Source: Shigella phage Moonfish. From it: DNA of 64,000 nt. Each line of letters opens with the position of its first letter. Within the stretch, counting starts at the first letter, position 1. Positions 1 to 62,017 of this stretch are shown here, piece by piece. Under the pieces are notes generated by a model. That model did no database searches. It was not told where the DNA came from and saw only the letters and a program-made list of their open reading frames with translations. The translations under genes were made by a program, and so were the position numbers. The stretch lies in the sequence record PQ613263. The stretch is one strand, 5' to 3'.

Positions 1-8
1 ATTCTACG

Positions 9-974
9 TTGCGTAACTGCACTACTAGTAGCTGCCGTATGGGGTTACATCTATGGGGGCAAAACGTTTCTATCAATATCACGGGATGCCATTTCCGCCG
101 TGATCATTATTCTACATTGGGTAACACGTTTGGCATTCGCATCCAGCCTAGGGTGTATGCGTGGAGTCCTGACCAGAGTTCAGGATCTCGTAGTGAAGCC
201 ATCGTTATTGACGGGGAAACTATGTGTATTTCTGTAGATTATGGCATCTATGTTGATGACTGCCTGGACTTGCAGATGAGTAATCTGGATTTGGATTACA
301 TTCGAAAGAATGCCGTGTCTATTATTAACGTTAATGGTGGATTTAACCTATCAGATTCGTGGATAGCTGGCGATGGTGAGTCCACAGAGCAATTTTTTGC
401 AGTTTCTTTAAACGCTAACGCAATCCAACAACAGAAATCAATTACTGGTTTGCACTGTAATTTGCATAATGCCAACCCCCTCAATAATAACATTGGTATT
501 AACATTGCTGGCCAAAATGTTGGGCCTGTATATATCGGCCAGTCTACGTTTGTCGGTGGGTGGTCGGGTATAGCAATTTTTAACCATACAAGTGGGGGTA
601 TTGTTATTGATTCGTGTACTTTGGCAAATCAGTTGTACCTAACTGGTTCTAGTGATGTTGTAGTGCAAAATTCTGGATTAACTGGTATTGAGGAAACATT
701 TAAGCCTTCCAATTCTCATCATTACTATCGTTCTAATAGAGGCACACCTGCCACTAATGGGATAGTAAATGTTCCTGTTGCTAGTGGGGCCACTTCAGGA
801 ACATTAACTATACCTAATGCAGACACAACTAAGTCGTATAGCGTTCGCCCATGGGTAGTTGACCCAGCTACTGCAAACGATACTGCTTCCTGCTCTGCTG
901 GTGTAATTACAGTAAACAGGCCTATAGCAGTAGGTATCCCACTCCCATCTACAGTGGAATACTCTTTGTTTTAA
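9..974 (+). CDS. C-terminal part of a tail/appendage protein (beta-helix-like); 5' end probably lies outside the window
   Basis: ORF runs from the window edge; Gly/Asn/Thr-rich repeats typical of tailspike beta-helices; sits upstream of the lysis and head genes. Confidence 0.4.
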   Translation: MRNCTTSSCRMGLHLWGQNVSINITGCHFRRDHYSTLGNTFGIRIQPRVYAWSPDQSSGSRSEAIVIDGETMCISVDYGIYVDDCLDLQMSNLDLDYIRKNAVSIINVNGGFNLSDSWIAGDGESTEQFFAVSLNANAIQQQKSITGLHCNLHNANPLNNNIGINIAGQNVGPVYIGQSTFVGGWSGIAIFNHTSGGIVIDSCTLANQLYLTGSSDVVVQNSGLTGIEETFKPSNSHHYYRSNRGTPATNGIVNVPVASGATSGTLTIPNADTTKSYSVRPWVVDPATANDTASCSAGVITVNRPIAVGIPLPSTVEYSLF

Positions 975-978
975 TCAA

Positions 979-1006
979 AGCCCCCGTAGTTGGGGGCTTT
1001 TTTGTT
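979..1006 (+). terminator. Rho-independent terminator
   Basis: GC hairpin aagcccccgtagttgggggctt followed by a T-run, directly after the stop at 974. Confidence 0.6.
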
Positions 1007-34011: not shown

Positions 34012-34273
34012 TGTAAGCCTTTTTTAATATGCGGTTGGCATAGTGCACAATCTTCTCTGAGTCATACACCGAAGAGTTTCCGGGTTTACCATTACCCATA
34101 CGGGCAGCAGCATTTCGCCATAGAGCTTTAAAGGCACAACCTTCATCGAAGGTCATGCCCAGTGCTTGGATAATATCCTCACACTCTGCTTGATATGGTT
34201 TTTGCTCTATCCGTTGAGGGTTCTTAACTGACACTACATAGTAGTTATTAAGACCGCCGGAGAGCTTAGTCAT
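33989..34273 (-). CDS. Hypothetical protein
   Basis: 94-aa ORF. Confidence 0.3.
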   Translation of the reverse strand: MTKLSGGLNNYYVVSVKNPQRIEQKPYQAECEDIIQALGMTFDEGCAFKALWRNAAARMGNGKPGNSSVYDSEKIVHYANRILKKAYNEDNQQS

Positions 34274-34578
34274 TATTCCCCCTTAGGAACCATGTTTGCT
34301 TGGAACTCTGGTTCAGACATTAGACCCAGATTGTTAATAGACAGATAAACAATGTCTTTTAAATCAACTGAGGTGTCGAAACGCTGGTCCAGACTAATCT
34401 TCAAGGAATGGTTGGCACGGGCCAAATCTTTGTAGGTCACATGAGGTTCGTCAGTGAGCAGCATTGTGTTCATGGTAAGCAGGGAACCATCATCAGCTTT
34501 AGGAAGCTGGAAGATTACCTGTGCTGCTACCATCCAATGATATTTTCTGACAACGGTTTCTTTAGTACTTTTAGTCAT
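34273..34578 (-). CDS. Hypothetical protein
   Basis: 101-aa ORF, start/stop overlap with neighbours. Confidence 0.3.
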   Translation of the reverse strand: MTKSTKETVVRKYHWMVAAQVIFQLPKADDGSLLTMNTMLLTDEPHVTYKDLARANHSLKISLDQRFDTSVDLKDIVYLSINNLGLMSEPEFQANMVPKGE

Positions 34579-35498
34579 GCGAATGCCTTTTGAATTATTT
34601 GATGAACTTCTTCAGGGGTAGCGTGATTTGGAATCTCAATCTCGTTAGCCCACGTTGGGTAGAACAAGGACAGTTCCCCACCCAAACCAACTTCTGGATG
34701 AGCAATATCAGGATGGTCTTGCCAGTTAACGGCTTCAACCAAATGCTTGTTCGTGTACTGCAAGGTATCCATGTTGTCACGAATCATGAAGTACTGAGCA
34801 TCATGAATGTGAATACTAGGACGAATATCTAACCTGAACTCACTGGCTCTAACTTTACGCATAAACTCCGAGCCAGCACGGTTATTCAGTAGGCACCAGC
34901 TTTGCCCTAAGGCATTACCAGCAGTTCTACCTTCAGCTTCTGCTTCATATGGAGTCTTACATGTCCCACGTAAAACCTGAGCCAGTAAAGGAGTACGCAC
35001 TCTCAAACCAAATGCAGCAGTTACATAACCAGTCTTGGCAGCTTCGTCTAGCTTAGCCTGAACCCAAGCATCACTAACTACATAAAGGTCGTGATAACGT
35101 TTCTCTGTGAGCTTTGCTTTCTCTTCCGAGAAGCCACAGTTCTTCATTAAGCCCATATACGTACCACCATAGGTAAGCAGGAAGGTTGGAGCCTTCGAGT
35201 CACCTCGTAATGATTTGTATTTGTGCTGGATGGAGTTGATGGATTCAACCGTATCTACAATGTCTGGCATCTGCTCACCGAAGTAAGCATACGCACGAAG
35301 ACTGTGCCCATCATAACCATCGGTATATACCTTAAGTTTCTGGGGGTCTTTCGTAGTCAATGCAGAGATACGGTCTTCAAGGCTTGCAAAGTCCAGTCCA
35401 CAAAATATCCAACCTGGGGGTGCTTCGAAGCATTTCTTAATCTTCTTGGCATATTTGGAACCACTAGGGATGGTCTGTAGATTCCTGATGTTCAGCAT
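34575..35498 (-). CDS. DNA polymerase, family A, C-terminal part (downstream exon or fragment)
   Basis: Contains NLQTIP, the second half of the conserved PolA motif RLSSSDPNLQNIP, and a motif-C-like IHIHDAQ. Confidence 0.65.
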   Translation of the reverse strand: MLNIRNLQTIPSGSKYAKKIKKCFEAPPGWIFCGLDFASLEDRISALTTKDPQKLKVYTDGYDGHSLRAYAYFGEQMPDIVDTVESINSIQHKYKSLRGDSKAPTFLLTYGGTYMGLMKNCGFSEEKAKLTEKRYHDLYVVSDAWVQAKLDEAAKTGYVTAAFGLRVRTPLLAQVLRGTCKTPYEAEAEGRTAGNALGQSWCLLNNRAGSEFMRKVRASEFRLDIRPSIHIHDAQYFMIRDNMDTLQYTNKHLVEAVNWQDHPDIAHPEVGLGGELSLFYPTWANEIEIPNHATPEEVHQIIQKAFA

Positions 35499-35561
35499 GG
35501 GTCGTTAATCCATGCCCGTCTTTCGACTGCTGCATATTCCTATGCAGAGCAGACTATATCA

Positions 35562-36095
35562 TCACGCCAGATAGTAAGGCGTGCCATGCGCTTCCACCCA
35601 CTTGAGTGTACTCTCTTTCGAGATAGTCGTTGCACCTTTCAATGCTGCGTGTAACCGAGCGTGGTCAGGAACACTTAGCAATACAAGATTATCAAAGTCG
35701 TTGTTATACGGATTCTCATCACAATGATGCACACACCAGCCTTTTGGTATTTCACTGATATTAAGTGCCTCACATACTACCACATGGTGAGCAAAAACGT
35801 GTTTACTGCCTTTGCGTGCAGTATACCAATCCGGTTTAAGTACCATTAAGTAACCTTTACTGTCGGATACTAAACCTTTGTAGTTATGATGGTCTTTCCC
35901 AAATTTACCTAGCATGGGGTTATTTTCCCCCAGCTTGGAGCGTCGGTAAGACTTTGCATTTCTGTTTTGACGGTATTCTTTACTGTAGTTCTCCATAATA
36001 TATTTAGAGACTTTTTTGTAATTAATACCTAAACGCTTTGATATTTCTGCTTGAGATAGGTCAGTATTCTCGTACAGAGTCTTGATATCCATCAT
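35562..36095 (-). CDS. HNH homing endonuclease inserted in the DNA polymerase gene
   Basis: HNH core HHVVVCEALN...CVHHCDENPYNNDFDNLVLL...DHARLH; own RBS TAGGAGG; lies between the two polymerase pieces. Confidence 0.6.
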   Translation of the reverse strand: MMDIKTLYENTDLSQAEISKRLGINYKKVSKYIMENYSKEYRQNRNAKSYRRSKLGENNPMLGKFGKDHHNYKGLVSDSKGYLMVLKPDWYTARKGSKHVFAHHVVVCEALNISEIPKGWCVHHCDENPYNNDFDNLVLLSVPDHARLHAALKGATTISKESTLKWVEAHGTPYYLA

Positions 36096-36168
36096 GTGCC
36101 TCCTAAGGCAGGTATGGTTGATTTGGCTCAGGATTGCCCGGTCTGGGTTTCCCCTGAATTCACATGGT

Positions 36169-37860
36169 TTAAATAGCCCAATTTATTTTAGGCTCTGAAG
36201 CCGATAACCTGCCGGAGACCGTGCCTCCCAAATTGAGATTACCGAACAGATAGTGCCAGCCATCCGGTCCCGGTTGGGCGTTCCTGAAAGCTGGTATAAA
36301 GCTAGTAATAATCTTATCCACGAGCTTATAGTCGATAAGAGCATTGAGCAGTTCCTTAACATCTTCACTCTGCGTATGTGTACGCAGTGCTTTAATAGTG
36401 TCACCATCAGTAGCTGGTTGCTTGCTCTTAGTAAGACCAAGAACTGGTAAGCCAATAAAATCAAATAACAATTTCTGTAACTGTGGACCGGAGTTAGGAT
36501 TGAACTCGATGTCACAATCAGCCAATGTTACCTGCTTCTTCTTAAGCTTGGTATTCTTATCGTCTACCCATTCCTGACGAAGCATCAGGGTGAAATTCTT
36601 CATGAGCTTAGACTCACGAATAGTTTTCAGAGCCTGGTTCCTGTCAGTTTCCATTTCCTCAGCTACTTGGTTAACGGTTTCCATATTCATTGGCATACCG
36701 GTTAACTGCATCTGAATAATGTCTTCACAGGCAGGTTTAAAGATGTTGTTATAAACATCCAGTTGGTCATCAGCAATGAGAGTATCCCAGTGCTTCTCGT
36801 AGGTGTACCACGTACACAGTCCATCGATTAGGTTGTAGCGTAACAATTGCTCATTAGGAATAAGACAAATGTCTTTGATATCGTCTTGAGCATAGTTACC
36901 GGCATACTCCTGAGCCTGGTCTTTCAGACTAAGGTGATTACCAGCACAACTGTTAGTAGCCAGATAAGTGATTAACTTAGTGCAGTCCCAGTTACGTAGC
37001 ATGACGTTCATGCCATACAGTAGACCTTCTGTATCAATCAGGTTATCCATGAATAACTGATAGATAAGTACATACACGTCATAGCTAATGTTGTGATACA
37101 TCTGCCGTTGGGTGTACTTAATGAAGAACTCACGTAACAGGTTACGGACAATATCATTTCTGTTGATACGCCCATAAGGTGCTTCAGTAGCTCCCTTAAT
37201 TGGCTCGTAGTCCACATTAAAAGCTATGCCTTGTGTCTTACTCCAACAGAATGTAATCGTTCCTATACCGGCGTTATAGTGCTTTAAACCGAATGATTCG
37301 ATGTCTATAGCCAATGGCTTATTCATCTCCAGCAACTGGTCTAGCCAGGCTTTAATCTCTTCGGGGGTATCTGGGTAGGCCTCAAACTCAATGATTCCCT
37401 GACCTGGTTCAGCATACTGTCCACGTATGTGGTTAAGTAGTGCATCCATACCCTGAGCAATTTTAGCTCTCACTACAGGTGGGTCATAAAAGACCTGTCT
37501 GTAGTTAGGCGTATAGATAACCTTCTGCTTACCCCATACTGAGTCACAAACGTAGCCGAGGTTGGCCTCTGCTTTAGCTTCTTTAGTCAGTATTTTAAAG
37601 TAATCAGAATCGGTACAGATGACGTACTGAGTTTCTGCATCATCCAGTACTTGTTGCAGTTCCTGCTGTATGAACTCCTTAATCTCCTTTGCAGGAGTCT
37701 TCTTTTTGCCGGGGGCAGAGTGAAGTTCAAGGAAGATAAAATCTTCCATGCTTAGGTCATATGGCAGCAGGTAGGTTTTAATCATCTCCTCCCTTCGGAT
37801 TTGATGACCGAGGATAGCAATAGGATATTTACCCGTATCCTGAGAGGTGATGTAACGCAT
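36169..37860 (-). CDS. DNA polymerase, family A, N-terminal part (3'-5' exonuclease and start of the polymerase domain)
   Basis: Exo I motif LAIDIESFG; ORF ends inside SGRLSASEP, the first half of the PolA motif. Confidence 0.7.
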   Translation of the reverse strand: MRYITSQDTGKYPIAILGHQIRREEMIKTYLLPYDLSMEDFIFLELHSAPGKKKTPAKEIKEFIQQELQQVLDDAETQYVICTDSDYFKILTKEAKAEANLGYVCDSVWGKQKVIYTPNYRQVFYDPPVVRAKIAQGMDALLNHIRGQYAEPGQGIIEFEAYPDTPEEIKAWLDQLLEMNKPLAIDIESFGLKHYNAGIGTITFCWSKTQGIAFNVDYEPIKGATEAPYGRINRNDIVRNLLREFFIKYTQRQMYHNISYDVYVLIYQLFMDNLIDTEGLLYGMNVMLRNWDCTKLITYLATNSCAGNHLSLKDQAQEYAGNYAQDDIKDICLIPNEQLLRYNLIDGLCTWYTYEKHWDTLIADDQLDVYNNIFKPACEDIIQMQLTGMPMNMETVNQVAEEMETDRNQALKTIRESKLMKNFTLMLRQEWVDDKNTKLKKKQVTLADCDIEFNPNSGPQLQKLLFDFIGLPVLGLTKSKQPATDGDTIKALRTHTQSEDVKELLNALIDYKLVDKIITSFIPAFRNAQPGPDGWHYLFGNLNLGGTVSGRLSASEPKINWAI

Positions 37861-37869
37861 GGCTTTACC

Positions 37870-38400
37870 TTAGAAAATCAGATGGGAAGCTGCATAGTAC
37901 TCAATGGAAGGTAGAATCTTCTCATACTGCTTGATTGCTAAATCATCACCAGCAAGAGTCCAAGCTGCTTCACGAGTACGCTGTAGTCCTTTGTACTGAC
38001 CAGTCTGGTCTTGAGCTACCAGACATTCAGGTAGAGCATCACGTACATCCTGATAGGACATACAACCACGAACCAGACGATATACAGTCTGGTTCACAAG
38101 GTGTACTTCCATAATCAGACTACTGGAGGCTTTCAGATACTTGTCCATTGCTGGCCATAGTTCTGGATTAAGTGTTAATCGTTCGCCGTAGGTTGGGGGT
38201 CTAGAAGCATTAGAACGTTGATAGAACTCCCCCTGATAAAGGAATCCAGCCGATATATCTACACCGTTGATACGGTCATTCTTATCAATGATACTGTTTA
38301 GCACACCATCAAGACGAACCAGTTCTGCTAAGAACAGGTGTTTGACTATCTCACTACTATTGGCAACCTGACCAATAGTCGTTGAACCAATCTGAGGCAT
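37870..38400 (-). CDS. Hypothetical protein
   Basis: 176-aa ORF between helicase and polymerase. Confidence 0.35.
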   Translation of the reverse strand: MPQIGSTTIGQVANSSEIVKHLFLAELVRLDGVLNSIIDKNDRINGVDISAGFLYQGEFYQRSNASRPPTYGERLTLNPELWPAMDKYLKASSSLIMEVHLVNQTVYRLVRGCMSYQDVRDALPECLVAQDQTGQYKGLQRTREAAWTLAGDDLAIKQYEKILPSIEYYAASHLIF

Positions 38401-40591: not shown

Positions 40592-42625
40592 TTACTTAAC
40601 GGCTTTGACCAGTTTGGTAGCTAACTTAGCTTCTTCTTCAGTCAGTCCCATTGCAGTGAATGACTTCTTAGCATGGCGCTTATAGTCTTGCAGAGCATGG
40701 CCTTTCTGATAGTCAGGATATGACTCATCATTCAGGATACTACGCAGGTTATCAGCGTGTTTGCTATTGGCAGGTGCTTTAGCCACTGGAGCTTTAGCAA
40801 CCTTAATCGGTTTGCCAACAGGCTTACAGGAGCAGGTTGCACGTACATCAGCAATCTTAGCAACAACATCATTGCCAACATCGAATGCAGCCCAAGGCTT
40901 ACGAGCTTTTCCACGTAACTCTACCAGCAGGTCAGCAGCAGCTAACTTATCTTCCGGGGTAGTTGCATTAAGGAACTCTTTAACCAGTTCCTGGATTTGT
41001 TCTTTCACAGTCGGAGCCTTCTTAATAACAGGTTTAAGGTCAGTAGCCTTCACTGGTTCAGAAGCTACAGCTTCATTCAGTGACTCTTCCATATTCAGTG
41101 CTTCTTTATTAGCAACAGTACGGAATTGTTCTACGGAACCAGATGATAGATTGGTGTATTTGAGGTTAGTACCATAATGACCACCAACCATAACAAGTGT
41201 GGTAGGTGAGCTGTGGTTCCCAACGATAGCATCGTTAAGCAATTTCTTGCCTACTTCTGTTTTAGACAGGTAGATACCTTTATTAACGTTACTACGTTCC
41301 TCTTCTGGCAGTTCAGCAATAATGTGATACGCAGCTACACGCATCTTATTGGTGTTGTATTCAGGAACAGCAAATACATCTTCCGGTGCTACTTTACCGA
41401 GGATAGTTACATCACCGCCGAAGGTGCGGATATAGCTCATGGATGCTACATGCAGACCATTGGAGCAGTCCTGACGGCGGTCAGGGTCTACCAGGTCTTC
41501 ACGTATCTGTACTTTACATCCTACCCATTGACGGATGTTGCCTGAGTGACAGTCAACGAATACACGTTTACCGTCTTCTGTACCTTTATACTTAAGGCGT
41601 TTCAGGAACAGGATTGAACCATCATCAGCAATAGGTAGTTCAGCAGTTTCCATGAACTTCATCAGGTCTTCCACTGAATGCAGACGGTCTTTAATAACTG
41701 GAGCCAGACGTTCAAGGAACTTAGTAAATCCCTTGTAGTCTTTCAACTTGGCAGACTGACGCAGGTGACGTTGTAGGTTCTCAACTCCAGGGATAACCCC
41801 ATCGTTGGTAACAGCAACAACCACTTCATCTTCCTTCACATCAGTGTGGAAGTTGGCGTCATCGGTACAAATAGCCCCCAATGCAGTTAGCTTCTCAGAA
41901 GCAGCAGCCAGTTTATCCTGGTTCGTAACTTTATCCTCTTCTACGTAAGGTAGAGGGGTTTCCTCACGATTGGTAAATACAATTTGTACGCCTTTGATGT
42001 TCCGGGCTTGTTTAGCAAACTCACCCATTTCATCATCAGATACCCCACGAATTGCAATAGGCCATTCCTGTGCAAGAATGTTGTTGGTGTGGTAATAACC
42101 CCAACCCAACACATCGTTAATAAAACGAACCAGTGCAGTATGGTTATGGTCTTTATCCCAGCCGGTAACCCACATCAGATTGTCGCGTTTGTCACGCCAA
42201 CCCTCTGATACAGTTACTACTGGTTCATTAGCCTGTACAGCCAGGAAGGTATCCATAGCTTTTGACACCAACGTCTTGGTAGGACTGCCCAGCTTAATAT
42301 CTGAAATGATACGAGTAGGTGGAACACCTGTACCATCTTCGAAGAACTCTTTGAGTTTAGCTTTTGCTACCTTGAAGAAACGGACGAATCCGTTAGTATT
42401 CTTCTCTGCTTCCAGATACTCGATACGTAGGCTTACTTCTGGTGCAATGTTTACTTCTATTTGGTCCAGGATAGTACCCAGACCTTTGGTTTGTGCTTCG
42501 GATACAATGCGAGCAACCCGAGGGTCGCTCTGGGGATATACAACCGTGGAGCCATCAGGCTTCCACAATGTGAGGTTACGACTGTCAACTGCCAGTGCGA
42601 TGATAGAAATCAGCTCGATTTTCAT
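40592..42625 (-). CDS. rIIB-like protein (by position after the rIIA-like gene)
   Basis: 677-aa ORF immediately downstream of the rIIA-like gene; assignment is positional only. Confidence 0.3.
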   Translation of the reverse strand: MKIELISIIALAVDSRNLTLWKPDGSTVVYPQSDPRVARIVSEAQTKGLGTILDQIEVNIAPEVSLRIEYLEAEKNTNGFVRFFKVAKAKLKEFFEDGTGVPPTRIISDIKLGSPTKTLVSKAMDTFLAVQANEPVVTVSEGWRDKRDNLMWVTGWDKDHNHTALVRFINDVLGWGYYHTNNILAQEWPIAIRGVSDDEMGEFAKQARNIKGVQIVFTNREETPLPYVEEDKVTNQDKLAAASEKLTALGAICTDDANFHTDVKEDEVVVAVTNDGVIPGVENLQRHLRQSAKLKDYKGFTKFLERLAPVIKDRLHSVEDLMKFMETAELPIADDGSILFLKRLKYKGTEDGKRVFVDCHSGNIRQWVGCKVQIREDLVDPDRRQDCSNGLHVASMSYIRTFGGDVTILGKVAPEDVFAVPEYNTNKMRVAAYHIIAELPEEERSNVNKGIYLSKTEVGKKLLNDAIVGNHSSPTTLVMVGGHYGTNLKYTNLSSGSVEQFRTVANKEALNMEESLNEAVASEPVKATDLKPVIKKAPTVKEQIQELVKEFLNATTPEDKLAAADLLVELRGKARKPWAAFDVGNDVVAKIADVRATCSCKPVGKPIKVAKAPVAKAPANSKHADNLRSILNDESYPDYQKGHALQDYKRHAKKSFTAMGLTEEEAKLATKLVKAVK

Positions 42626-42629
42626 CAGA

Positions 42630-45293
42630 TTAATTACCTTTCAGTTTATTTAGACGATTACGGTAGAGGGACTTAAACCCAGGAATATCATCTGGATGTT
42701 TCTTGAGATACCTGACTAAGCTAGTCAAGTCCAGGTTTTGCAGGATGTCATCCTTATTCCAGCTATAACAAAATAAAGCTTTGTACTTGCTGAGTATTTC
42801 GTAATGTTTATGATTACGTGGGTTAGTCATTGTCATGTATGGCACTAAGTCTTCCTCTGACTTAATGTAACCCATTTCAATGAGCTTCCTCTCTTTACTC
42901 CGATGATTTCTTAGGAAATCATACGCCCATTCATACTCTGGATTAAAAATCAGATTTTGTAGTGGTTTGAATGTTAGACCAAGAATACCGAGGATTTCCC
43001 AATACTCTCTGTCATCCAATCCTATGTACTCAGTAATACCAATACGCTGTTCAGTGACATACTTCTTGAATCCCTTACTGGAAATAACAGACATCAATTC
43101 ACTGAGTCGAATATCGTCAATGTGAATAGCACCACGTCGTTTAGCCTTGTTAACTTCGATTTGATTGCGACAGACAACAGTTTCTGCTTTCATCTCATCG
43201 GACAACTCATACCATTTCCACATGGTTCCAATCCGGGCATTATCTGGTCTACCAGAACTAACCTGATTGGCTAGTACGTAGTACTTAGGCTGTTCCACTT
43301 CAACGAAACCAGATTTCTCATGGTAGATTGGGTCAGCAAACTCCTTCTGGATATACGGTTTATATATCCGATCTCCATTTTCATCTCGTACAAGAGTAGT
43401 ACCTAGTACTGCATTCAATGAAATTAGAGCATTGGTTTTACCCCCTGCTTTGGTTTTATTGTCAGCTAGTGTCTTAGCTCGATTCTCGGCAGCTATCCTA
43501 GCTTGCTCCTTACGGAAGTTAGTTGGTTTGTCCCACTCATTGTATTGAGTAAGGTCAATTACCCGATAACCCATAGCAGTGAATTTAGCTACAGCCTCCT
43601 CTGCTGCACCCTTCTTAGAACTAACGTTGTCCCACTCATTGTATTGAGTAAGGTCAATTACCCGATAACCCATAGCAGTGAATTTAGCTACAGCCTCCTC
43701 TGCTGCACCCTTCTTAGAACTAACGACGTGAACAAAAGCTGTACGCTCCAGGTCACCTCGGTTGTACTCAGGGAAGTATGAGAAAGAGTCTGCACAATCA
43801 GATAAACGGCGAGTAACTACAACGTTCTTGGTAGTGAATATACCAATACCTAGATGGGAGTGATAATCCACCTTAAAGTAATCAGTAAGTTTACCTTTCA
43901 CCAGTTTGGTACAGCTACCCTGGTTCATTATGTAACCTGACCACTTAATACCAGTAGCTTTTAAAGCAGCAATCTGAGGTAAGTGCAGATGGCGATATAC
44001 GAATCCCTGGAATGGATAGCGTGTACCATTTGCACGAGTATGCTTAAGAGCACTTATAGCCTTACTATACAGTTTTTTAAGACCTGCATATTCAGGACGA
44101 GCTAGTAATGCTTTATTGGATAAATTACGCCAGTGTTTGATGTGGTGCTTGCGTTGCTTAGCCCATAAACTAGAGGACATATAGCGTTGAACAATAGGGT
44201 CTGTAACAGCAAGTAGGAAAGGTGGATACCTCCAGAAGCAGGAAGAAGCTTTAGAAGCATATTCTTCAATCTGCTTAATAGCTTCAGGAATCTTAGCCTT
44301 AATCTCTTTCTCCATACGGTCTACTAAATCTACACATAGAGCAGTAATACCATCGTCGGTTAACTTCTGGTTAGACAGGGTTTCTCGACTAGGAGCAATA
44401 GCTAAGGTATCCGGTGCAGCCTGAACTACTAAATTAGAAGCACCAATGATGTTCATAAAGTTGAGAATAAGACCTACAGCTTCTTCACTAGCTGGGCTGG
44501 ATACTATTGGGTACATTACATTACCGTAACGAATAAAGATGTTACTGCTACCCATATAGTTTTGATACCAGCTATCAGACATATCATATGAACCAGGTTT
44601 AAATGACATACCTAACGTAGGTAATAAAGTGTAGTCACCTTGTAGAATACTATTACCCGTTTCTTCACGAGTGAGTTTGGGGGTACTAAGCTCAGCCTTA
44701 ATTTCACCGTTAAACACAATAGATTTGATGTAGTGAATAAAGGTACTTACGTCGTGTTTACCTAGCTGGAATTTAACTTCCAGACCGGATTCCTCAGTAG
44801 GAATACCAGTAACGATAGGAACAATACCTGGTTTACCATCATTCTCTATTGCAGCTTTAGCTACGTTATATACCGACATCTTTCCTTGGTTCCACGAAGT
44901 AACCTGGAAGCTATCTGTATAAGCGAATGGGGACTTACATCCCAGACCAAATCCACCAGTAACACTACTGTTGGACTTCTTGGTAGATGCACCATAGACA
45001 CCATAAATGGAACCAATGAGTTCATCTGGGATACCGTTACCAAAGTCACGGAAGGTAATAAAGTTGTCTGTATCAATAGTAATACGGATAGGAGTATCAG
45101 TCTTACCTGCTTCAATATGAGCATCCCAACTGTTACAGATAGTCTCACGGACTACTGCCAGAGTAGGATTGTTATATAGGGAAGTACTTAATACGTGAAA
45201 GAATGCCGGGTCATCAGAGATGCCAAAGGCGATTGCTTCTTTACCACCCAGTGTCGCTGAAGTGGCTGATTGATTAGTATCTGCAACTAACAT
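42630..45293 (-). CDS. rIIA-like protein with N-terminal GHKL ATPase domain
   Basis: GHKL motifs ETICNSWDA, RDFGNGI, GGFGLGCKS; 887 aa; contains an in-frame 33-aa tandem duplication. Confidence 0.55.
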   Translation of the reverse strand: MLVADTNQSATSATLGGKEAIAFGISDDPAFFHVLSTSLYNNPTLAVVRETICNSWDAHIEAGKTDTPIRITIDTDNFITFRDFGNGIPDELIGSIYGVYGASTKKSNSSVTGGFGLGCKSPFAYTDSFQVTSWNQGKMSVYNVAKAAIENDGKPGIVPIVTGIPTEESGLEVKFQLGKHDVSTFIHYIKSIVFNGEIKAELSTPKLTREETGNSILQGDYTLLPTLGMSFKPGSYDMSDSWYQNYMGSSNIFIRYGNVMYPIVSSPASEEAVGLILNFMNIIGASNLVVQAAPDTLAIAPSRETLSNQKLTDDGITALCVDLVDRMEKEIKAKIPEAIKQIEEYASKASSCFWRYPPFLLAVTDPIVQRYMSSSLWAKQRKHHIKHWRNLSNKALLARPEYAGLKKLYSKAISALKHTRANGTRYPFQGFVYRHLHLPQIAALKATGIKWSGYIMNQGSCTKLVKGKLTDYFKVDYHSHLGIGIFTTKNVVVTRRLSDCADSFSYFPEYNRGDLERTAFVHVVSSKKGAAEEAVAKFTAMGYRVIDLTQYNEWDNVSSKKGAAEEAVAKFTAMGYRVIDLTQYNEWDKPTNFRKEQARIAAENRAKTLADNKTKAGGKTNALISLNAVLGTTLVRDENGDRIYKPYIQKEFADPIYHEKSGFVEVEQPKYYVLANQVSSGRPDNARIGTMWKWYELSDEMKAETVVCRNQIEVNKAKRRGAIHIDDIRLSELMSVISSKGFKKYVTEQRIGITEYIGLDDREYWEILGILGLTFKPLQNLIFNPEYEWAYDFLRNHRSKERKLIEMGYIKSEEDLVPYMTMTNPRNHKHYEILSKYKALFCYSWNKDDILQNLDLTSLVRYLKKHPDDIPGFKSLYRNRLNKLKGN
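43528..43725. repeat. Perfect 99-bp direct tandem duplication (2 copies) inside the rIIA-like CDS
   Basis: Two identical adjacent 99-nt units beginning ttgtcccactcattgtattgagtaaggtc; encodes VSSKKGAAEEAVAKFTAMGYRVIDLTQYNEWDN twice. Confidence 0.9.
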
Positions 45294-45320
45294 TTATTTA
45301 CTCTCCAGTTTAAATGTTGC

Positions 45321-45512
45321 TTAAAGTAGTACTTGTTTACACTTATCAAAAATAGCTTTACGTAGTTCAGCTTCTTCCAGCGGTTCATCATTGGGGTGAT
45401 GACCCAATGGACTGTTTTGAAAAGCATTCATTAGGAATAAGACTTGATATTCTGTTAAGCCATTGATCTGAATGCTATACGTTTTCTCTGAGGCGATATT
45501 TACATTAACCAT
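45321..45512 (-). CDS. Hypothetical protein
   Basis: 63-aa ORF. Confidence 0.3.
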   Translation of the reverse strand: MVNVNIASEKTYSIQINGLTEYQVLFLMNAFQNSPLGHHPNDEPLEEAELRKAIFDKCKQVLL

Positions 45513-45837
45513 TACGTTTACTTGCCATTGCTTGTAGGACGAATACAGCTATATCACTTGCAGTGTCATCAGTAAGTTCCTCCACTGAATAGTGACTTTC
45601 ACCATCAAGTTCACCATTTTGCCATTCATCCAGCATACGCTGCACTTCAGCTAATCCAGCCTGTATCATTTTCTTGCTTGGTTCCAGCCATAATTTACGT
45701 TCCTCTGCCAGTGCAGCAATGCACATACACAGTGAAGCGATGTTAGCCGGACAAGCAGCAATATCACCAGTGAGAGCTATCTCACTTAAAGGTTTAGCTT
45801 CCCCAGTTTGGGCCAGTATAACTTCAGGATTAATCAC
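45505..45837 (-). CDS. Hypothetical protein
   Basis: 110-aa ORF. Confidence 0.3.
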   Translation of the reverse strand: MINPEVILAQTGEAKPLSEIALTGDIAACPANIASLCMCIAALAEERKLWLEPSKKMIQAGLAEVQRMLDEWQNGELDGESHYSVEELTDDTASDIAVFVLQAMASKRNG

Positions 45838-46075
45838 GGATTTGCTCCAGGTTATGAGTAGGAATAGGGAAGAACGGATAGTCCCCAGTAGGGTCTAAGG
45901 TTACGGACACATGATGAATACCAGTAATCTGGGACATGCTGAGAGCAGTGTCGAAATCATCCTGTGTACAGGCATAAACAACATCACCTTTATTGACTTG
46001 TGGATCCATTACAGGTGTGTCTTTGATACGGTATTTAGCAGGCATATGCCCCCCTAAAAGGGTTAATAGAATCAA
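45830..46075 (-). CDS. Hypothetical protein
   Basis: 81-aa ORF. Confidence 0.3.
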   Translation of the reverse strand: MILLTLLGGHMPAKYRIKDTPVMDPQVNKGDVVYACTQDDFDTALSMSQITGIHHVSVTLDPTGDYPFFPIPTHNLEQIRD

Positions 46076-46098
46076 AAAAAGACCTCCCGGAGGAGGTC
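46073..46098 (-). terminator. Rho-independent terminator
   Basis: Hairpin gacctcc-cgga-ggaggtc; on the - strand it is followed by TTTTTTT. Confidence 0.6.
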
Positions 46099-46104
46099 TT
46101 AGGT

Positions 46105-46341
46105 TTACTTACTATTTCTCCCAAAGAAGCGTATTACACGTTCCTTTGCTTCATCCTGCTCCTTAATGGCTACATAATCTCGTGCATAGTAATACACACA
46201 CCATAAGCCAAGAACACATGCAGAAAAACGGGCTACTACGAAGAACATCTCTTCCAGGCTCTGTGCACCATGTAGTGCAAATACAAATTCCAGAACCAGG
46301 ATGATACTTATAATCATTGCTTGGATAGCTAAACGTTTCAT
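46105..46341 (-). CDS. Small membrane protein (2 TM)
   Basis: 78 aa with two hydrophobic segments. Confidence 0.35.
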   Translation of the reverse strand: MKRLAIQAMIISIILVLEFVFALHGAQSLEEMFFVVARFSACVLGLWCVYYYARDYVAIKEQDEAKERVIRFFGRNSK

Positions 46342-47282
46342 TCTGTAATTGTTTCTCCTGGGATTAACTTACGGAATTGGATGAAATCTAGCAGGTTGCC
46401 TGAATACAGATTACCTTCACGGTCCATAGAGGTAACACCCTGTTCCCAGGTTAATGGGTTCTGGTTGTTAATGAACTTATCACCGAATAGCATAGGAGTT
46501 GCTTGGTGTTCAGTAGGGGATGCATGAATAGGTTGGTCTTCGACTAACTTAGCAAACAATCCCAAGTCCTCTTCAATAGTAGAAGGGCGGCCTTCGAAAT
46601 TGTTGTAAGAAGCACGAGCACAACGAGCAGCACTTACTTTAAGAAGTAAGCCATACACTTCTTCACGACTTGGCTCATCACGAGTAATTCGTTGATGTTT
46701 GCAGTAATTATAAGCCCCGACACGATCAATATGAGCAATATACGGTAAATGCCATTCCCCTTGTGGGAGTGCTCTTGGAGTGCTTTCATTATGAGCCTTA
46801 CGCATTGCTTGAGCCAGTTCACGAATCTCCGGTTGGGCATCTTCATGGTCACGCAGTCCATAGAAGTTAGTCCAGCTAGTTGAAGTTACCACTACACGAA
46901 TATGTGTGAATGGTTCCAGAATACGGTTAACAATCTGCTTATGTACTTGCCCACGACGCAGCATTTCTGCATAGGTAGCAGCACTGGACGCAGCCTGGTT
47001 CCAGATAAAGATTGCATCACTACGTTGGTCTTCGGACAATTCTTCAAATGCCTGCATCCCTTTCTGGTTCTTACCCCAGTGACTTGGCATCACTGGTTCA
47101 TTACGAACCTGTTCGATGAACTTAGAAGTAGGGATAGCACGACTACTTGAAGCGTTGCGGTTAAACACACGGTGGGTCATAAACTCACTGTGAATGAATC
47201 GGGGATAGACCAATTCAAAGGTAGTAATACGAGTACCCGTTGCATGATGAACGGAATCTGCAATGACAGTTGCCTTAATCAT
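46338..47282 (-). CDS. thyX: Flavin-dependent thymidylate synthase (ThyX-like)
   Basis: ThyX signature region SEFMTHRVFNRNASSSRAIP (RHR-x7-S-like); 314 aa. Confidence 0.5.
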   Translation of the reverse strand: MIKATVIADSVHHATGTRITTFELVYPRFIHSEFMTHRVFNRNASSSRAIPTSKFIEQVRNEPVMPSHWGKNQKGMQAFEELSEDQRSDAIFIWNQAASSAATYAEMLRRGQVHKQIVNRILEPFTHIRVVVTSTSWTNFYGLRDHEDAQPEIRELAQAMRKAHNESTPRALPQGEWHLPYIAHIDRVGAYNYCKHQRITRDEPSREEVYGLLLKVSAARCARASYNNFEGRPSTIEEDLGLFAKLVEDQPIHASPTEHQATPMLFGDKFINNQNPLTWEQGVTSMDREGNLYSGNLLDFIQFRKLIPGETITE

Positions 47283-47725
47283 TAGAATGACCTTAGATAG
47301 TTGGTAATACCACTACGGTTTTCTGTAATCTTCTTGGCCTGAACATATACCAGCTTAAACTCACTACGGGGTAGTTCCTGTAATACTGCTATACCTTCAG
47401 TAAGAGCCACAGAACACGCTACAGCGGTTTCTTTTTTAAAGGAGTACAAGTCTTCATACAAGAGGGCTTCATACTCTTTACGGAGCATACAGAGAGCATC
47501 TCTTGCCTTATCACTTACTTCTTTTGAACCAGCAGACATAGCTAAACTGTATATGATAAAGACTTGTTCAAAAACAAAGTCCAGTAATCTATCAGGGTTG
47601 TTAGTACCCATGAATAATTTTGTTGTGTAGGAACGGGCTTTACGGTTGAGTACATACTCATCCTCTATACCTTTCTTATAAAGAACGGGGCTTCGTTCCC
47701 TTTTCCGTAGGAATGGAATACGCAT
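47282..47725 (-). CDS. Hypothetical protein
   Basis: 147-aa ORF. Confidence 0.3.
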   Translation of the reverse strand: MRIPFLRKRERSPVLYKKGIEDEYVLNRKARSYTTKLFMGTNNPDRLLDFVFEQVFIIYSLAMSAGSKEVSDKARDALCMLRKEYEALLYEDLYSFKKETAVACSVALTEGIAVLQELPRSEFKLVYVQAKKITENRSGITNYLRSF

Positions 47726-47745
47726 TAGTAAATCTTTCTTAGTAA

Positions 47746-47773
47746 ATAAAAAAGCCCACGGGTTAGGTGGGCT
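47746..47773 (-). terminator. Rho-independent terminator
   Basis: Hairpin agcccac-gggttag-gtgggct preceded on + by an A-run (U-run on the - strand). Confidence 0.55.
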
Positions 47774-47853
47774 TGGGTTAGGAGAAGGATAAGCAATGAT
47801 CTGGAAGTAACTTCCACAAATAGCCCTACTAGAGGGCTATACAGGTAAGTTGC

Positions 47854-48060
47854 TTATTCAGCTTCTGCTTCAGGCTTAGCTCCAGACAGTGCTTTAGCTA
47901 CATTACGACGAACAGAGTCGTAACCTACTTCAGTTCGTAGAAGAGAGCCGTCAACAAAAGCAATATCTGCTTTTCCGTCATCGCTGCATTGTACTGTTAC
48001 TACGTTTGCTGCAACTACTGTAAACTTACGACCATTTGCTTTGGTAGTGAATACTGACAT
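47854..48060 (-). CDS. Hypothetical small protein
   Basis: 68-aa ORF. Confidence 0.3.
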   Translation of the reverse strand: MSVFTTKANGRKFTVVAANVVTVQCSDDGKADIAFVDGSLLRTEVGYDSVRRNVAKALSGAKPEAEAE

Positions 48061-48069
48061 GTTGTTTCC

Positions 48070-48576
48070 TTATTTACTGCTTCTCGCAGCTACTGGTTTG
48101 TTTTCCTGGTTATTGTACTTGCCTGTGTATGTGGCAGGTTCTTGAACCAGATGAAATAATACTTGAGCTATCCCGGAACCAGCCGGGATATGTAATTTCT
48201 TACGTCCGTGATAGACCAGTTCAAGGGTAAGATACCCTTTCCATCCTGGTTCAATCACGGTATTGAACACTGATAATGCACGTCTTGCCCATGTAGACTT
48301 ATCGTGAACGATTGCTACACAGGATGGGGACATGTTGAACTTCTCAATGGCTGAAGCCAATGCGAACTTACCGAGATGGTGTGATACCTGTTTTCCATCA
48401 ATGATTTTCACCATTGGAATCAACCCAAATAAGCGATAGAAGGTAATATCTTGTTTGATACGAATATCATAACCAGCTTCACCCAACCCATAGCTTACAC
48501 CATGCTCGGATACCTTACGGTCTGGGACATCCAGTAATTGAGAGGAACGATATAGGGAATTACCGTTAACAACCAT
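48070..48576 (-). CDS. dcd: dCTP deaminase / dUTPase-superfamily protein
   Basis: Motif VIEPGWKGYLTLEL resembles the dCTP deaminase signature; 168 aa. Confidence 0.5.
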   Translation of the reverse strand: MVVNGNSLYRSSQLLDVPDRKVSEHGVSYGLGEAGYDIRIKQDITFYRLFGLIPMVKIIDGKQVSHHLGKFALASAIEKFNMSPSCVAIVHDKSTWARRALSVFNTVIEPGWKGYLTLELVYHGRKKLHIPAGSGIAQVLFHLVQEPATYTGKYNNQENKPVAARSSK

Positions 48577-60398: not shown

Positions 60399-60719
60399 CT
60401 ATTTAGTCAGGATGTCGATTACTTTTGAATATTCTGCGTTATAGATACGAGCGTTCTCTGAATCTTTGCAGAATTCTTCGATACTTTTCTTACGCATAGT
60501 CTCGTTCATAGCTGTTTCTTCAGCTAATTTGTTTACGAATGTATGCATTTCTAATTTAGTACGGATGGCTTGTTTCTCTGCCATAGTAGATACATATGAA
60601 TTAAGCATACCTACTGCTTTAGTAGCTGTGCCGAATGTATCTGCAACAGTAGTAGCAGCTGAGTTAACAGTACCCAGTAAAGTTCCTGCGGTCATACGTA
60701 CAGTAGCGGTAGTAGTCAT
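60399..60719 (-). CDS. Hypothetical early protein (coiled-coil)
   Basis: 106-aa ORF 43 nt downstream of a hairpin promoter. Confidence 0.3.
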   Translation of the reverse strand: MTTTATVRMTAGTLLGTVNSAATTVADTFGTATKAVGMLNSYVSTMAEKQAIRTKLEMHTFVNKLAEETAMNETMRKKSIEEFCKDSENARIYNAEYSKVIDILTK

Positions 60720-60761
60720 GATGATAGCTCCAATAGTTGATGATAGGACGACATGTCCATA

Positions 60762-60776
60762 ACATGCGGAGCATGT
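60762..60776 (-). promoter_or_regulatory. Hairpin promoter candidate (N4 vRNAP-type), core acatGCGGAGCatgt
   Basis: 6-bp stem, GGA loop; in a 267-nt intergenic region. Confidence 0.5.
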
Positions 60777-60986
60777 GTAACGTGTAAGGTGGGGTAGGGT
60801 AGTGGCTACAGGGTCAACATACCGGGGGGGATGGTTGAGTGTAAGGGTGTAGCCCCAGCCACACCACTAAAGCTGAACATAGCTATGATGAAATCCCTAA
60901 GAAAAAATATGAGAAGTACTTTCCCTATGCGACTACTGCTAGACATAGCTATCAACATTTTGACATGCAAAAATATCATAGCTATC

Positions 60987-61313
60987 TCACTTATAAGCAG
61001 CTAAATAGGAGGGAGCATACACCAGGAATATGGATTGAAGGGTATCGCTCGATGTGAAGGTAAGGGTGTACTTATCAGTGTTCACATGCCAGGGGGAATG
61101 TACATATGTAGACCAGGGTAATTCCTTTCCTGGTTCCTGAAGTTTTACAATAACTTTCCTGCCTAGTATTAGAGCCAGACCTTTCACTTCATGAAGGGTT
61201 TGCTCATCTGGTACTAGGATAATAGGAGTGAGTCTACCTGGTTCGAGGTCTTGTAAGGTTGTATGGGCAGTGGGATTGGGTCCACCAGCATAACCTATCT
61301 TAGTGAGTTTCAT
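60987..61313 (-). CDS. Small early protein, paralog family member A
   Basis: Shares IILVPDEQTLHEVKGL and SPWHVNTDKYTLTF with 62014..62298. Confidence 0.4.
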   Translation of the reverse strand: MKLTKIGYAGGPNPTAHTTLQDLEPGRLTPIILVPDEQTLHEVKGLALILGRKVIVKLQEPGKELPWSTYVHSPWHVNTDKYTLTFTSSDTLQSIFLVYAPSYLAAYK

Positions 61314-61316
61314 TTG

Positions 61317-61694
61317 TTATACCCCGTAATCTATCTTAACCAGTCTACCTTTGTAGTAACCAAAGTTCTTAGGGAAGGCATCATACTCAAAGAACTCTTT
61401 ACCGAGTGGCTGTGGTTCATTGGCTGCATCTAAGTATAGCTTCTCTAACTCTACCCAGAATAAACCAGTATGTTTCACAGGCTTAGCCCTGTGCATGATT
61501 AGAACCAGACCAAATCTATTAGAGTACTTGATTGGGCATAGGAACTTATTGTTGTAATCCTTCCACTGTCCTTCAGTTAGATTGCTTAACATACCTTGTA
61601 CGAAGTGTTTCCATGTAGAGAGGATAGGGAACTTAATTGCGTAATGACGAGTGAGTATTACCCATCTGGTTCCACCGGAGCGTATTAGTTTCAT
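61317..61694 (-). CDS. Hypothetical early protein
   Basis: 125-aa ORF. Confidence 0.3.
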   Translation of the reverse strand: MKLIRSGGTRWVILTRHYAIKFPILSTWKHFVQGMLSNLTEGQWKDYNNKFLCPIKYSNRFGLVLIMHRAKPVKHTGLFWVELEKLYLDAANEPQPLGKEFFEYDAFPKNFGYYKGRLVKIDYGV

Positions 61695-62017
61695 TTGGTA
61701 GCCTTGAATTGTGGTAACTGATTAAGAAGACTATCCATGTAGTAGCAGTATGCCTCGGAGGATTCGTCATTAATTGGAAGACCAATGAATCCAAAGGTAT
61801 AAATGCAGAAGTGATTAAGCTCATGAACCAAGGTTATCTTACTATCATCAAATATACCCATAAGCACAAAGTTGTCCGCTATGTAGCAGGTTTTTCCTTT
61901 AAGGGTTGTTTCCTTTTCTGGTTCAGTACCACGGTATGCTTTATGCTTCTTAGAGAATGTAGCCCAGTCATATACTACTTCTAACTGTACTGGATAGGGG
62001 GATGTGTTTAGTTTCAT
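61691..62017 (-). CDS. Hypothetical early protein
   Basis: 108-aa ORF. Confidence 0.3.
   Translation of the reverse strand: MKLNTSPYPVQLEVVYDWATFSKKHKAYRGTEPEKETTLKGKTCYIADNFVLMGIFDDSKITLVHELNHFCIYTFGFIGLPINDESSEAYCYYMDSLLNQLPQFKATK

What the first reader, a model, noticed from the sequence alone, without database searches (positions are those of the whole stretch)
43528..43725. Perfect in-frame 99-bp tandem duplication inside the rIIA-like gene
Two adjacent identical 99-nt units (43528-43626 and 43627-43725) duplicate 33 codons (VSSKKGAAEEAVAKFTAMGYRVIDLTQYNEWDN). The only difference in the encoded protein is the last residue of the unit (N versus K), which is set by the first codon after each copy, so the event looks very recent. 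It could also be an assembly artifact. The duplication generates a spurious + strand ORF (43503..43781) in the track.
Basis: seen in the sequence. Interest (0 to 1): 0.65.

Follow-up and report, generated by a model that had tools for sequence, protein, structure and literature searches.

The report
Assembly-overlap duplicate inside phage rIIA gene
The perfect 99-base tandem repeat in this phage's rIIA-like gene is really in the sequence, but it is most likely a leftover assembler overlap (k = 99) from joining contig ends, not a biological duplication.

Summary
Window 43528-43626 and 43627-43725 are two abutting, 100% identical 99-bp units. They are the only exact repeat of 20 bp or more in the 64 kb. 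They lie in frame inside an 887-aa rIIA-like gene (42630-45293, minus strand) of a G7C-like N4-type coliphage (Gamaleyavirus).

Every relative examined has one copy: 55 phage genomes whose gene spans about 2565 bp, 15 metagenome or IMG/VR contigs, and all 120 listed homologues.

Two contigs assembled independently (Logan, k = 31) from public run SRR32252115 match the window at 100.000% over 9.7 kb. One of them runs straight through the site with a single copy.

The window also passes through one collapsed copy of the terminal repeat, so the record is a circularly closed assembly that was reopened elsewhere. The repeat length equals a standard de Bruijn k value (99), the copies are identical, and the junction has no microhomology.

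Best explanation (about 0.85): an untrimmed k-mer overlap left when contig ends were joined or the genome was rotated. A genuine, very recent 33-aa duplication is not excluded (about 0.1). Reads or PCR would settle it: 351 bp against 252 bp. Interest is low.

The parts
43528..43626 (-). 99-bp unit, copy nearer the 3' end of the gene. It encodes residues 557-589 (VSSKKG...EWDK).
   Evidence: In the AlphaFold model this copy is built into the fold (helix 563-573, strand 577-580, pLDDT 83-91).
43627..43725 (-). 99-bp unit, copy nearer the 5' end of the gene. It encodes residues 524-556 (VSSKKG...EWDN). This is the 33-aa stretch that aligns to a gap in all relatives.
   Evidence: It is modelled as a low-confidence excursion (pLDDT below 50 at 526-533 and 544-560).
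43612..43641 (.). The novel junction (unit end to unit start, 43626|43627). This is the only sequence that would not exist in a single-copy genome.
   Evidence: The 30-mer CTTCTTAGAACTAACGTTGTCCCACTCATT is absent from IMG/VR. There is no in-register microhomology: the bases before the copies are t and g, and the bases after them are t and a.
42630..45293 (-). rIIA-like gene, 887 aa as written and 854 aa with one unit. It has an N-terminal GHKL/Hsp90-like ATPase domain.
   Evidence: ORF; PF13589, residues 47-155; PHROG 2979, E = 1.6e-297; 55 relatives with about 2565 bp; fold matches to Hsp90/HtpG.
40592..42625 (-). rIIB-like gene immediately downstream (context).
   Evidence: PHROG 2886, E = 3.4e-210. 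Synteny with phi G17 and G7C gp34.
43503..43781 (+). Antisense ORF of 92 aa, lengthened by the repeat. Not a gene.
   Evidence: It lies wholly inside the rIIA coding region on the opposite strand.
60408..60886 (.). A single collapsed copy of the N4/G7C-type terminal repeat, flanked by right-end and left-end unique sequence. It shows that the record is a circularly closed assembly reopened elsewhere.
   Evidence: G7C bases 6-456 (left end) and 71733-72213 (right end) both map to window 60408-60886. Both lie in regions annotated 'contains terminal repeat'.

Best explanation
The second 99-bp copy is an assembly or finishing artefact. A de Bruijn graph assembler run with a final k of 99 (or k-1 = 99) gives a circular-looking phage contig whose two ends repeat the same k bases. 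It also gives adjacent contigs that overlap by k bases. N4-like phages have direct terminal repeats that collapse in short-read assemblies, so the genome closes into a circle and is cut at an arbitrary point, here inside rIIA. When the sequence was later rotated or joined to bring it into the layout of its closest reference (phi G17), the two ends were butted together without removing the overlap. That created a perfect, abutting 99-bp duplication.

Because 99 is divisible by 3, the reading frame stays open and the result looks like a 33-codon duplication.

Shown here:
- The repeat is perfect and unique in the window.
- Its length is 99.
- The record passes through a collapsed terminal repeat.
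- All relatives have a single copy.
- An independent assembly of a run containing the identical sequence has a single copy.

Inferred, not shown:
- Which assembler and k were used.
- That SRR32252115 is the run behind this record.
- The rotation or joining step itself.
For: (1) The repeat is exactly 99 bp, the copies are 100% identical and directly abutting, and it is the only exact repeat of 20 bp or more in 64 kb. From my own knowledge, 99 is in the usual SPAdes k lists (21,33,55,77,99,127) and in the MEGAHIT default list.

(2) There is no in-register microhomology at the junction, and no hairpin or other structure at the unit edges.

(3) The window runs through one collapsed terminal-repeat copy at 60408-60886. 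It is collinear with the non-canonical phi G17 record and reversed relative to G7C. The sequence was therefore closed as a circle and reopened or reoriented after assembly.

(4) Logan contig SRR32252115_14 (5770 bp) is 100.000% identical to window 42436-48304 but has one unit. A second contig of the same run, SRR32252115_0 (3943 bp), is 100.000% identical to window 34176-38118. The nearest database relative is only about 90% identical.

(5) Logan contigs are non-branching paths of a k = 31 graph after simplification, with every 31-mer used once (PMC12424806). A fixed tandem duplication would branch at both unit edges and break the contig. This contig continues 1.1 kb and 4.6 kb past the unit.

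(6) All relatives have a single copy:
- 55 phage genomes.
- The alignment with phi G17 and G7C.
- 20 loci whose two halves overlap by exactly 99 bp.
- 15 metagenome or IMG/VR contigs with one match each.
- None of the 120 best homologues is 887 aa long.

(7) There is a precedent. Repeats of about 79 bp inside short-read-only Shovill/SPAdes phage assemblies were seen in 7 of 10 phages and shown by Sanger sequencing to be artefacts (PMC10438801).
Against: The reads and the assembly log behind this record cannot be seen. It is not proven that SRR32252115 is the source run rather than a sibling isolate.

The Logan assembly of that run is fragmented at places with no repeat in the window (ends at 34176, 38118, 42436 and 48304). 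The run may therefore be mixed, noisy or thinly covered.

A real duplication in the record's own reads would also leave no intact 887-aa protein in Logan, so its absence there says nothing.

The ORF stays intact. The structure model suggests the extra helix-strand element could be accommodated as a surface excursion, so a real duplication would not obviously be lethal.

A final k of 99 is not the SPAdes default for 150-bp reads.
Confidence: 0.85

Rival explanations
1. A genuine, very recent in-frame tandem duplication of 33 codons, fixed in the sequenced phage stock. It would have arisen by replication slippage or illegitimate recombination. It would add a second helix-strand element to the central alpha/beta domain of rIIA.
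For: The duplication keeps the 887-aa ORF open. An otherwise identical single-copy allele exists, as expected for a brand-new mutation. The model folds copy 2 normally and leaves copy 1 as an excursion next to a long linker helix, which is compatible with a tolerated insertion. From my own knowledge, rII genes are dispensable on many hosts in T4, so selection against such a change could be weak.
Against: An exact length of 99 is an unlikely coincidence for a biological event but expected for a k-mer overlap. There is no junction microhomology. No other member of the family carries it. The only public run carrying this phage's exact sequence shows an unbranched single-copy path. A perfect 99-bp direct repeat would be unstable to homologous recombination unless selected (inference).
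Confidence: 0.1
2. A real duplication present only in a subpopulation of the lysate. The depositor's assembler wrote it into the consensus, while the Logan simplification removed it as a low-coverage connection.
For: Logan contigs are built after graph simplification that removes weakly covered connections. A minority junction could therefore be dropped, giving the observed single-copy contig.
Against: An assembler normally keeps the better-covered branch, so a minority allele should not end up in the consensus. The coincidence with k = 99 remains unexplained. There is no direct evidence of heterogeneity at this site.
Confidence: 0.04

Closest known systems
k-mer-length overlap at the ends of circular or adjacent contigs from de Bruijn graph assemblers (SPAdes, MEGAHIT, IDBA-UD), left untrimmed after rotation or concatenation
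   Same: The repeat is perfect and directly abutting, with a length equal to a standard k (99). It occurs once. The genome demonstrably closed as a circle through its collapsed terminal repeat and was reopened elsewhere.
   Different: The assembler, the k list and the original contig ends are not available, so the match rests on length and context, not on the assembly log. The k-overlap behaviour itself is cited from my own knowledge, not from a tool result.
Repeats of about 79 bp inside short-read-only Shovill/SPAdes assemblies of przondoviruses, shown by Sanger sequencing to be artefacts (PMC10438801)
   Same: Both concern a phage with direct terminal repeats and a short-read style assembly. 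Both show a short repeat of about k length inside the genome, not supported by read depth, arising where assemblies were reoriented.
   Different: The length is 79 bp there and 99 bp here. Most of those repeats lay close to or within the terminal repeat region. This one is about 17 kb away from it, inside a gene.
rIIA-like proteins of N4-like phages (G7C gp33, N4 gp33, phi G17 rIIA)
   Same: Outside the extra 33 aa, the protein is 85-89% identical to the G7C and phi G17 proteins. It has the same GHKL ATPase N-domain and the same rIIA-rIIB gene pair.
   Different: It is 887 aa rather than 852-855 aa, solely because of the repeated unit.
Classical tandem duplications of the T4 rII region (phage genetics of the 1960s-70s; from my own knowledge)
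   Same: Both involve a tandem duplication touching an rII gene of a lytic coliphage.
   Different: The T4 cases were kilobase-scale duplications selected in crosses and were unstable. Here the repeat is 99 bp, nothing indicates selection, and the data favour a non-biological origin.

Membership tests
Untrimmed assembler k-mer overlap (artefact) | The two copies are 100% identical and directly adjacent, with no spacer. | tested here: met
   99/99 identity and start-to-start spacing of 99.
Untrimmed assembler k-mer overlap (artefact) | The repeat length equals a k value used by de Bruijn assemblers. | tested here: met
   The length is exactly 99. That 99 is a standard k in SPAdes and MEGAHIT lists is my own knowledge. 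The record's actual k is unknown.
Untrimmed assembler k-mer overlap (artefact) | The genome was assembled as a closed circle and then reopened or reoriented, so the original contig ends can be internal. | tested here: met
   One collapsed terminal-repeat copy lies at window 60408-60886, with right-end and left-end sequence on either side. The orientation and layout follow phi G17, not the canonical G7C layout.
Untrimmed assembler k-mer overlap (artefact) | The reads do not support the unit-to-unit junction. | tested here: inconclusive
   An independent k = 31 assembly of SRR32252115 gives an unbranched single-copy path. That run shares 9.7 kb at 100% identity with the window. The reads themselves could not be inspected, and the link between that run and this record is unproven.
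Untrimmed assembler k-mer overlap (artefact) | Only one such repeat occurs per circular contig. | tested here: met
   It is the only exact repeat of 20 bp or more in the 64-kb window. The few kb of the genome outside the window were not seen.
Genuine tandem duplication (slippage or illegitimate recombination) | The duplication is present in independent sequence data for the same or related phages. | tested here: not met
   The junction is absent from IMG/VR. The 887-aa protein is absent from the 15-billion protein collection. All relatives, and the identical-sequence run, have a single copy.
Genuine tandem duplication (slippage or illegitimate recombination) | Short microhomology at the duplication endpoints (common but not obligatory). 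| tested here: not met
   There is 0 nt of in-register homology on either side.
Genuine tandem duplication (slippage or illegitimate recombination) | The reading frame is preserved if the gene is under selection. | tested here: met
   99 = 33 x 3 and the ORF is intact. This does not discriminate, because any 99-bp artefact is also in frame.
rIIA protein family (for the gene, not the repeat) | Sequence membership, an N-terminal GHKL ATPase domain and an adjacent rIIB gene. | tested here: met
   PHROG 2979 at E = 1.6e-297 and PF13589 above its cut-off. rIIB-like PHROG 2886 immediately downstream. Fold matches to the Hsp90/HtpG N-domain.

The most novel reading that the evidence does not exclude
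The duplication is real: a mutation so recent that no substitution separates it from its single-copy parent. It would add a second helix-strand element to the central alpha/beta domain of a Gamaleyavirus rIIA protein. It might have been selected during propagation, for example by changing how rIIA interacts with a host exclusion system.
Probability: 0.1. Interest if true: 0.3.

Novelty: not a real feature. Interest (0 to 1): 0.08.

Why it matters
As biology it matters little. Even if real, it would be a private, recent 33-aa duplication in an accessory gene of a well-populated phage genus.

As data quality it matters more. The record probably carries 99 extra bases and an rIIA protein 33 residues too long. 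These would propagate into protein databases and comparative analyses. The case also illustrates a general screening rule: a perfect, abutting repeat whose length equals an assembler k value, in a genome that was circularised and rotated, should be treated as an artefact until reads say otherwise.

Tried and rejected
- Junction 30-mer and left-flank 30-mer in IMG/VR: no hits, so this phage is not there.

- Exact look-up of the 887-aa protein: not on record. This is uninformative, because a k = 31 assembly can never contain both copies.

- Exact look-ups of five other window proteins, to test whether SRR32252115 holds the whole phage. Four were not on record (rIIB, portal, helicase and the 391-aa ORF), nor was the 272-aa ORF. 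One succeeded. The run's Logan assembly is fragmented, so the whole-genome comparison could not be completed.

- Idea that the 99-mer is a graph node shared between co-occurring related phages, so that contigs were joined there. The unit is only moderately conserved (91% against a gene mean of 87%, rank 715 of 2467 windows). No relative shares the full 99-mer. The idea is neither supported nor excluded.

- Structure-forming sequences at the unit edges that might promote a real duplication: none of note. Base composition is unremarkable.

- Literature search for the run accession, to learn the assembler: no paper found.

- Search for an explicit published statement of the k-overlap behaviour of SPAdes or MEGAHIT: not found in four searches. 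Only the przondovirus precedent and general advice to check contigs for duplicated regions turned up.

- PDB sequence search with the protein: no hits.

- The other member of P0001's cluster (P0121) is just an 88%-identical single-copy relative.

- Whether the window's first base is the start of the record could not be decided. An ORF begins at base 9, and bases 1-998 have no match in relatives.

Full report
**Observation**

The sequence at 43528-43725 consists of two directly abutting 99-nt units that are identical at every base.
- Tandem Repeats Finder reports period 99, 2.0 copies, 100% matches, no indels and score 396. The next best array in the window scores 46.
- A census of all k-mers on both strands shows these two units are the only exact repeat of 20 bp or more in the 64,000 bases. 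The repeat is real and far beyond chance.
- The base before copy 1 is t and the base before copy 2 is g. The bases after them are t and a. The repeat is therefore exactly 2 x 99 bp, with no in-register microhomology.

**What surrounds it**

The units lie inside a minus-strand ORF, 42630..45293, of 887 aa.
- The protein matches PHROG 2979 'RIIA lysis inhibitor' at E = 1.6e-297.
- It carries a GHKL-type ATPase domain (PF13589, residues 47-155, 37.1 bits against a cut-off of 25).
- The next gene downstream (40592..42625) matches the rIIB PHROG 2886 at E = 3.4e-210.
- A fold search with the predicted structure returns Hsp90/HtpG-type GHKL proteins.
- There is no sequence relative in the PDB.

The genome is a G7C-like N4-type coliphage (Gamaleyavirus, Schitoviridae). 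The rIIA gene hits 56 phage records. The best is phi G17 at 90.2% identity, so the phage itself is not in that collection.

In gene orientation the unit is the last base of codon V523, 32 whole codons, and the first two bases of the next codon. The junction codon therefore reads AAC (N556) and the distal one AAA (K589). The plus-strand ORF 43503..43781 (92 aa) exists and is an antisense by-product.

**Relatives have one copy**

- In 55 phage genomes the homologous stretch is about 2565 bp, which is 2664 minus 99.
- Protein alignment with phi G17 and G7C shows a clean 33-residue gap opposite residues 524-556.
- A unit-internal 31-mer occurs once per contig in 11 metagenome contigs and 4 IMG/VR contigs.
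- When window 43228-44025 is compared with 20 related loci, the two halves of the query always map to subject intervals that overlap by exactly 99 bp.
- Among the 120 best protein homologues, the close group is 852-855 aa and a 50%-identity group is 869-875 aa. None is 887 aa.

**An identical sequence with one copy**

The best protein hit, P0001 (854 aa), is identical to the window protein at all 854 positions and lacks only the 33 residues. It is encoded on Logan contig SRR32252115_14.
- All 5770 bases of that contig match window 42436-48304 with zero mismatches, apart from the missing unit.
- A second contig of the same run, SRR32252115_0 (3943 bp), matches window 34176-38118, again with zero mismatches.
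- The nearest database relatives are about 90% identical, so this run contains this very phage or a practically identical sibling.

According to the Logan paper, contigs are non-branching paths of a k = 31 de Bruijn graph after simplification, and every 31-mer occurs once (PMC12424806). A tandem duplication that was fixed in the reads would create a loop with a branch at each edge of the unit, and the contig would stop there. Instead it continues 1.1 kb on one side and 4.6 kb on the other. I infer that the junction 31-mers were absent, or at most a weak minority, in that run.

Caveats:
- I could not prove that this run is the one behind the record.
- Its Logan assembly is fragmented at places where the window has no repeat.
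- Several other window proteins are not found intact.

**The record is a reopened circle**

The left end of G7C (bases 6-456) and its right end (bases 71733-72213) both lie in regions annotated as containing the terminal repeat. Both map to the same window segment, 60408-60886. Right-end unique sequence continues above it and left-end unique sequence continues below it. The assembly therefore ran through a single collapsed terminal repeat, as short-read assemblies of such phages do, and the sequence was opened somewhere else. Its strand and layout follow the non-canonical phi G17 record, not G7C. Post-assembly handling (reorientation, rotation or joining) is therefore very likely.

**Best explanation**

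From my own knowledge, de Bruijn graph assemblers leave an overlap of k bases between the two ends of a circular contig and between adjacent contigs. 99 is a standard k (SPAdes lists 21,33,55,77,99,127; the MEGAHIT default list includes 99; IDBA-UD with k = 100 gives k-1 = 99). If the ends are butted together without trimming, the result is exactly what is seen: one perfect, abutting repeat of k bases, with no microhomology, at an arbitrary place. Because 99 is a multiple of 3, it automatically preserves the frame.

A published precedent exists. Repeats of about 79 bp inside short-read-only Shovill/SPAdes assemblies were found in seven of ten przondoviruses and shown by Sanger sequencing to be artefacts (PMC10438801). 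The phage annotation guide also tells authors to check contigs for duplicated regions and describes reordering genomes (PMC8785237).

I put this explanation at about 0.85.

**Rivals**

A genuine, very recent duplication fixed in the stock remains possible (about 0.1).
- The ORF stays open.
- A single-copy, otherwise identical allele is what a new mutation's parent would look like.
- The AlphaFold model has mean pLDDT 79.7. It builds the copy next to the downstream linker helix into a small alpha/beta domain (strand 519-523, helix 563-573, strand 577-580, pLDDT 83-91). It leaves the other copy as a low-confidence excursion (pLDDT below 50 at 526-533 and 544-560). The insertion could therefore be tolerated.
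- That placement is partly dictated by how the homologues align, so it is weak evidence.

Against the real-duplication reading stand the coincidence of the length with k, the lack of microhomology, the absence of the duplication everywhere else, and the unbranched single-copy path in the only public run that carries this sequence. A minority variant in the lysate that the depositor's assembler happened to keep is less likely still (about 0.04).

**Leads that went nowhere**

I tested whether the 99-mer sits in an unusually conserved stretch, which would fit contigs being joined at a node shared between co-occurring related phages. It is only moderately conserved (91% against 87% for the gene, rank 715 of 2467), and no relative shares the full 99-mer. 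There are no notable inverted repeats at the unit edges. No paper mentions the run accession.

**Verdict**

The rIIA gene should most likely read 2565 bp and 854 aa.

Interest is low as biology. The finding is useful as a correction to the record and as a screening rule. Read mapping across 43626|43627, or a PCR across 43450-43800 (252 bp against 351 bp), would settle it.

Noticed in passing
L002 (PQ435408.1, Escherichia phage vB_EcoP_CU10EC) 4661-4970, 6431-6874, 6718-7183: This public relative carries near-perfect tandem repeats of 155 bp x2 inside its rIIA gene, plus 221 bp x2 and 155 bp x3 a little further on. The 155-bp repeat is not a multiple of 3. In the annotation it coincides with rIIA being split into two CDSs, one of them labelled 'DNA topoisomerase 6 subunit B'. 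These look like assembly errors in that record.
   Followed up: partly
window 60408-60886: This is a single collapsed copy of the N4/G7C-type terminal repeat. Both G7C ends map to it. The true physical ends of this phage genome therefore lie inside the window, and the record is a circular permutation lacking one repeat copy.
   Followed up: yes
window 34575-37860 (minus strand); L024 259-3544: The family-A DNA polymerase is encoded as two separate ORFs (563 aa at 36169-37860 and 307 aa at 34575-35498). Both hit PF00476. A 176-aa HNH_3 endonuclease ORF lies between them (gene table; ORFs). This looks like a polymerase gene split by a homing endonuclease.
   Followed up: no
window 1-998 and about 61016-61713: Neither stretch has a megablast match in the closest relatives, although the flanks match at 84-94%. 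Bases 9-974 form a 321-aa ORF next to the lysis and portal genes. It may be a swapped host-range or tail module.
   Followed up: no
Logan contigs L004 and L024 (SRR32252115); window 34176, 38118, 42436, 48304: The Logan assembly of this run breaks at positions where the window has no repeat of 20 bp or more. Several genes are not recovered intact. The run may hold a mixture of related phages, noisy reads or thin coverage.
   Followed up: partly
search hits H4 (PP989839.1), H37 (OP312987.1), H14 (OY979416.1): The rIIA homologue is annotated as 'RIIB lysis inhibitor', as 'rllB-like protein' (twice), and as 'virion structural protein | unknown function | hypothetical protein' in these records. 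These are inconsistent annotations of the same gene across the genus.
   Followed up: no
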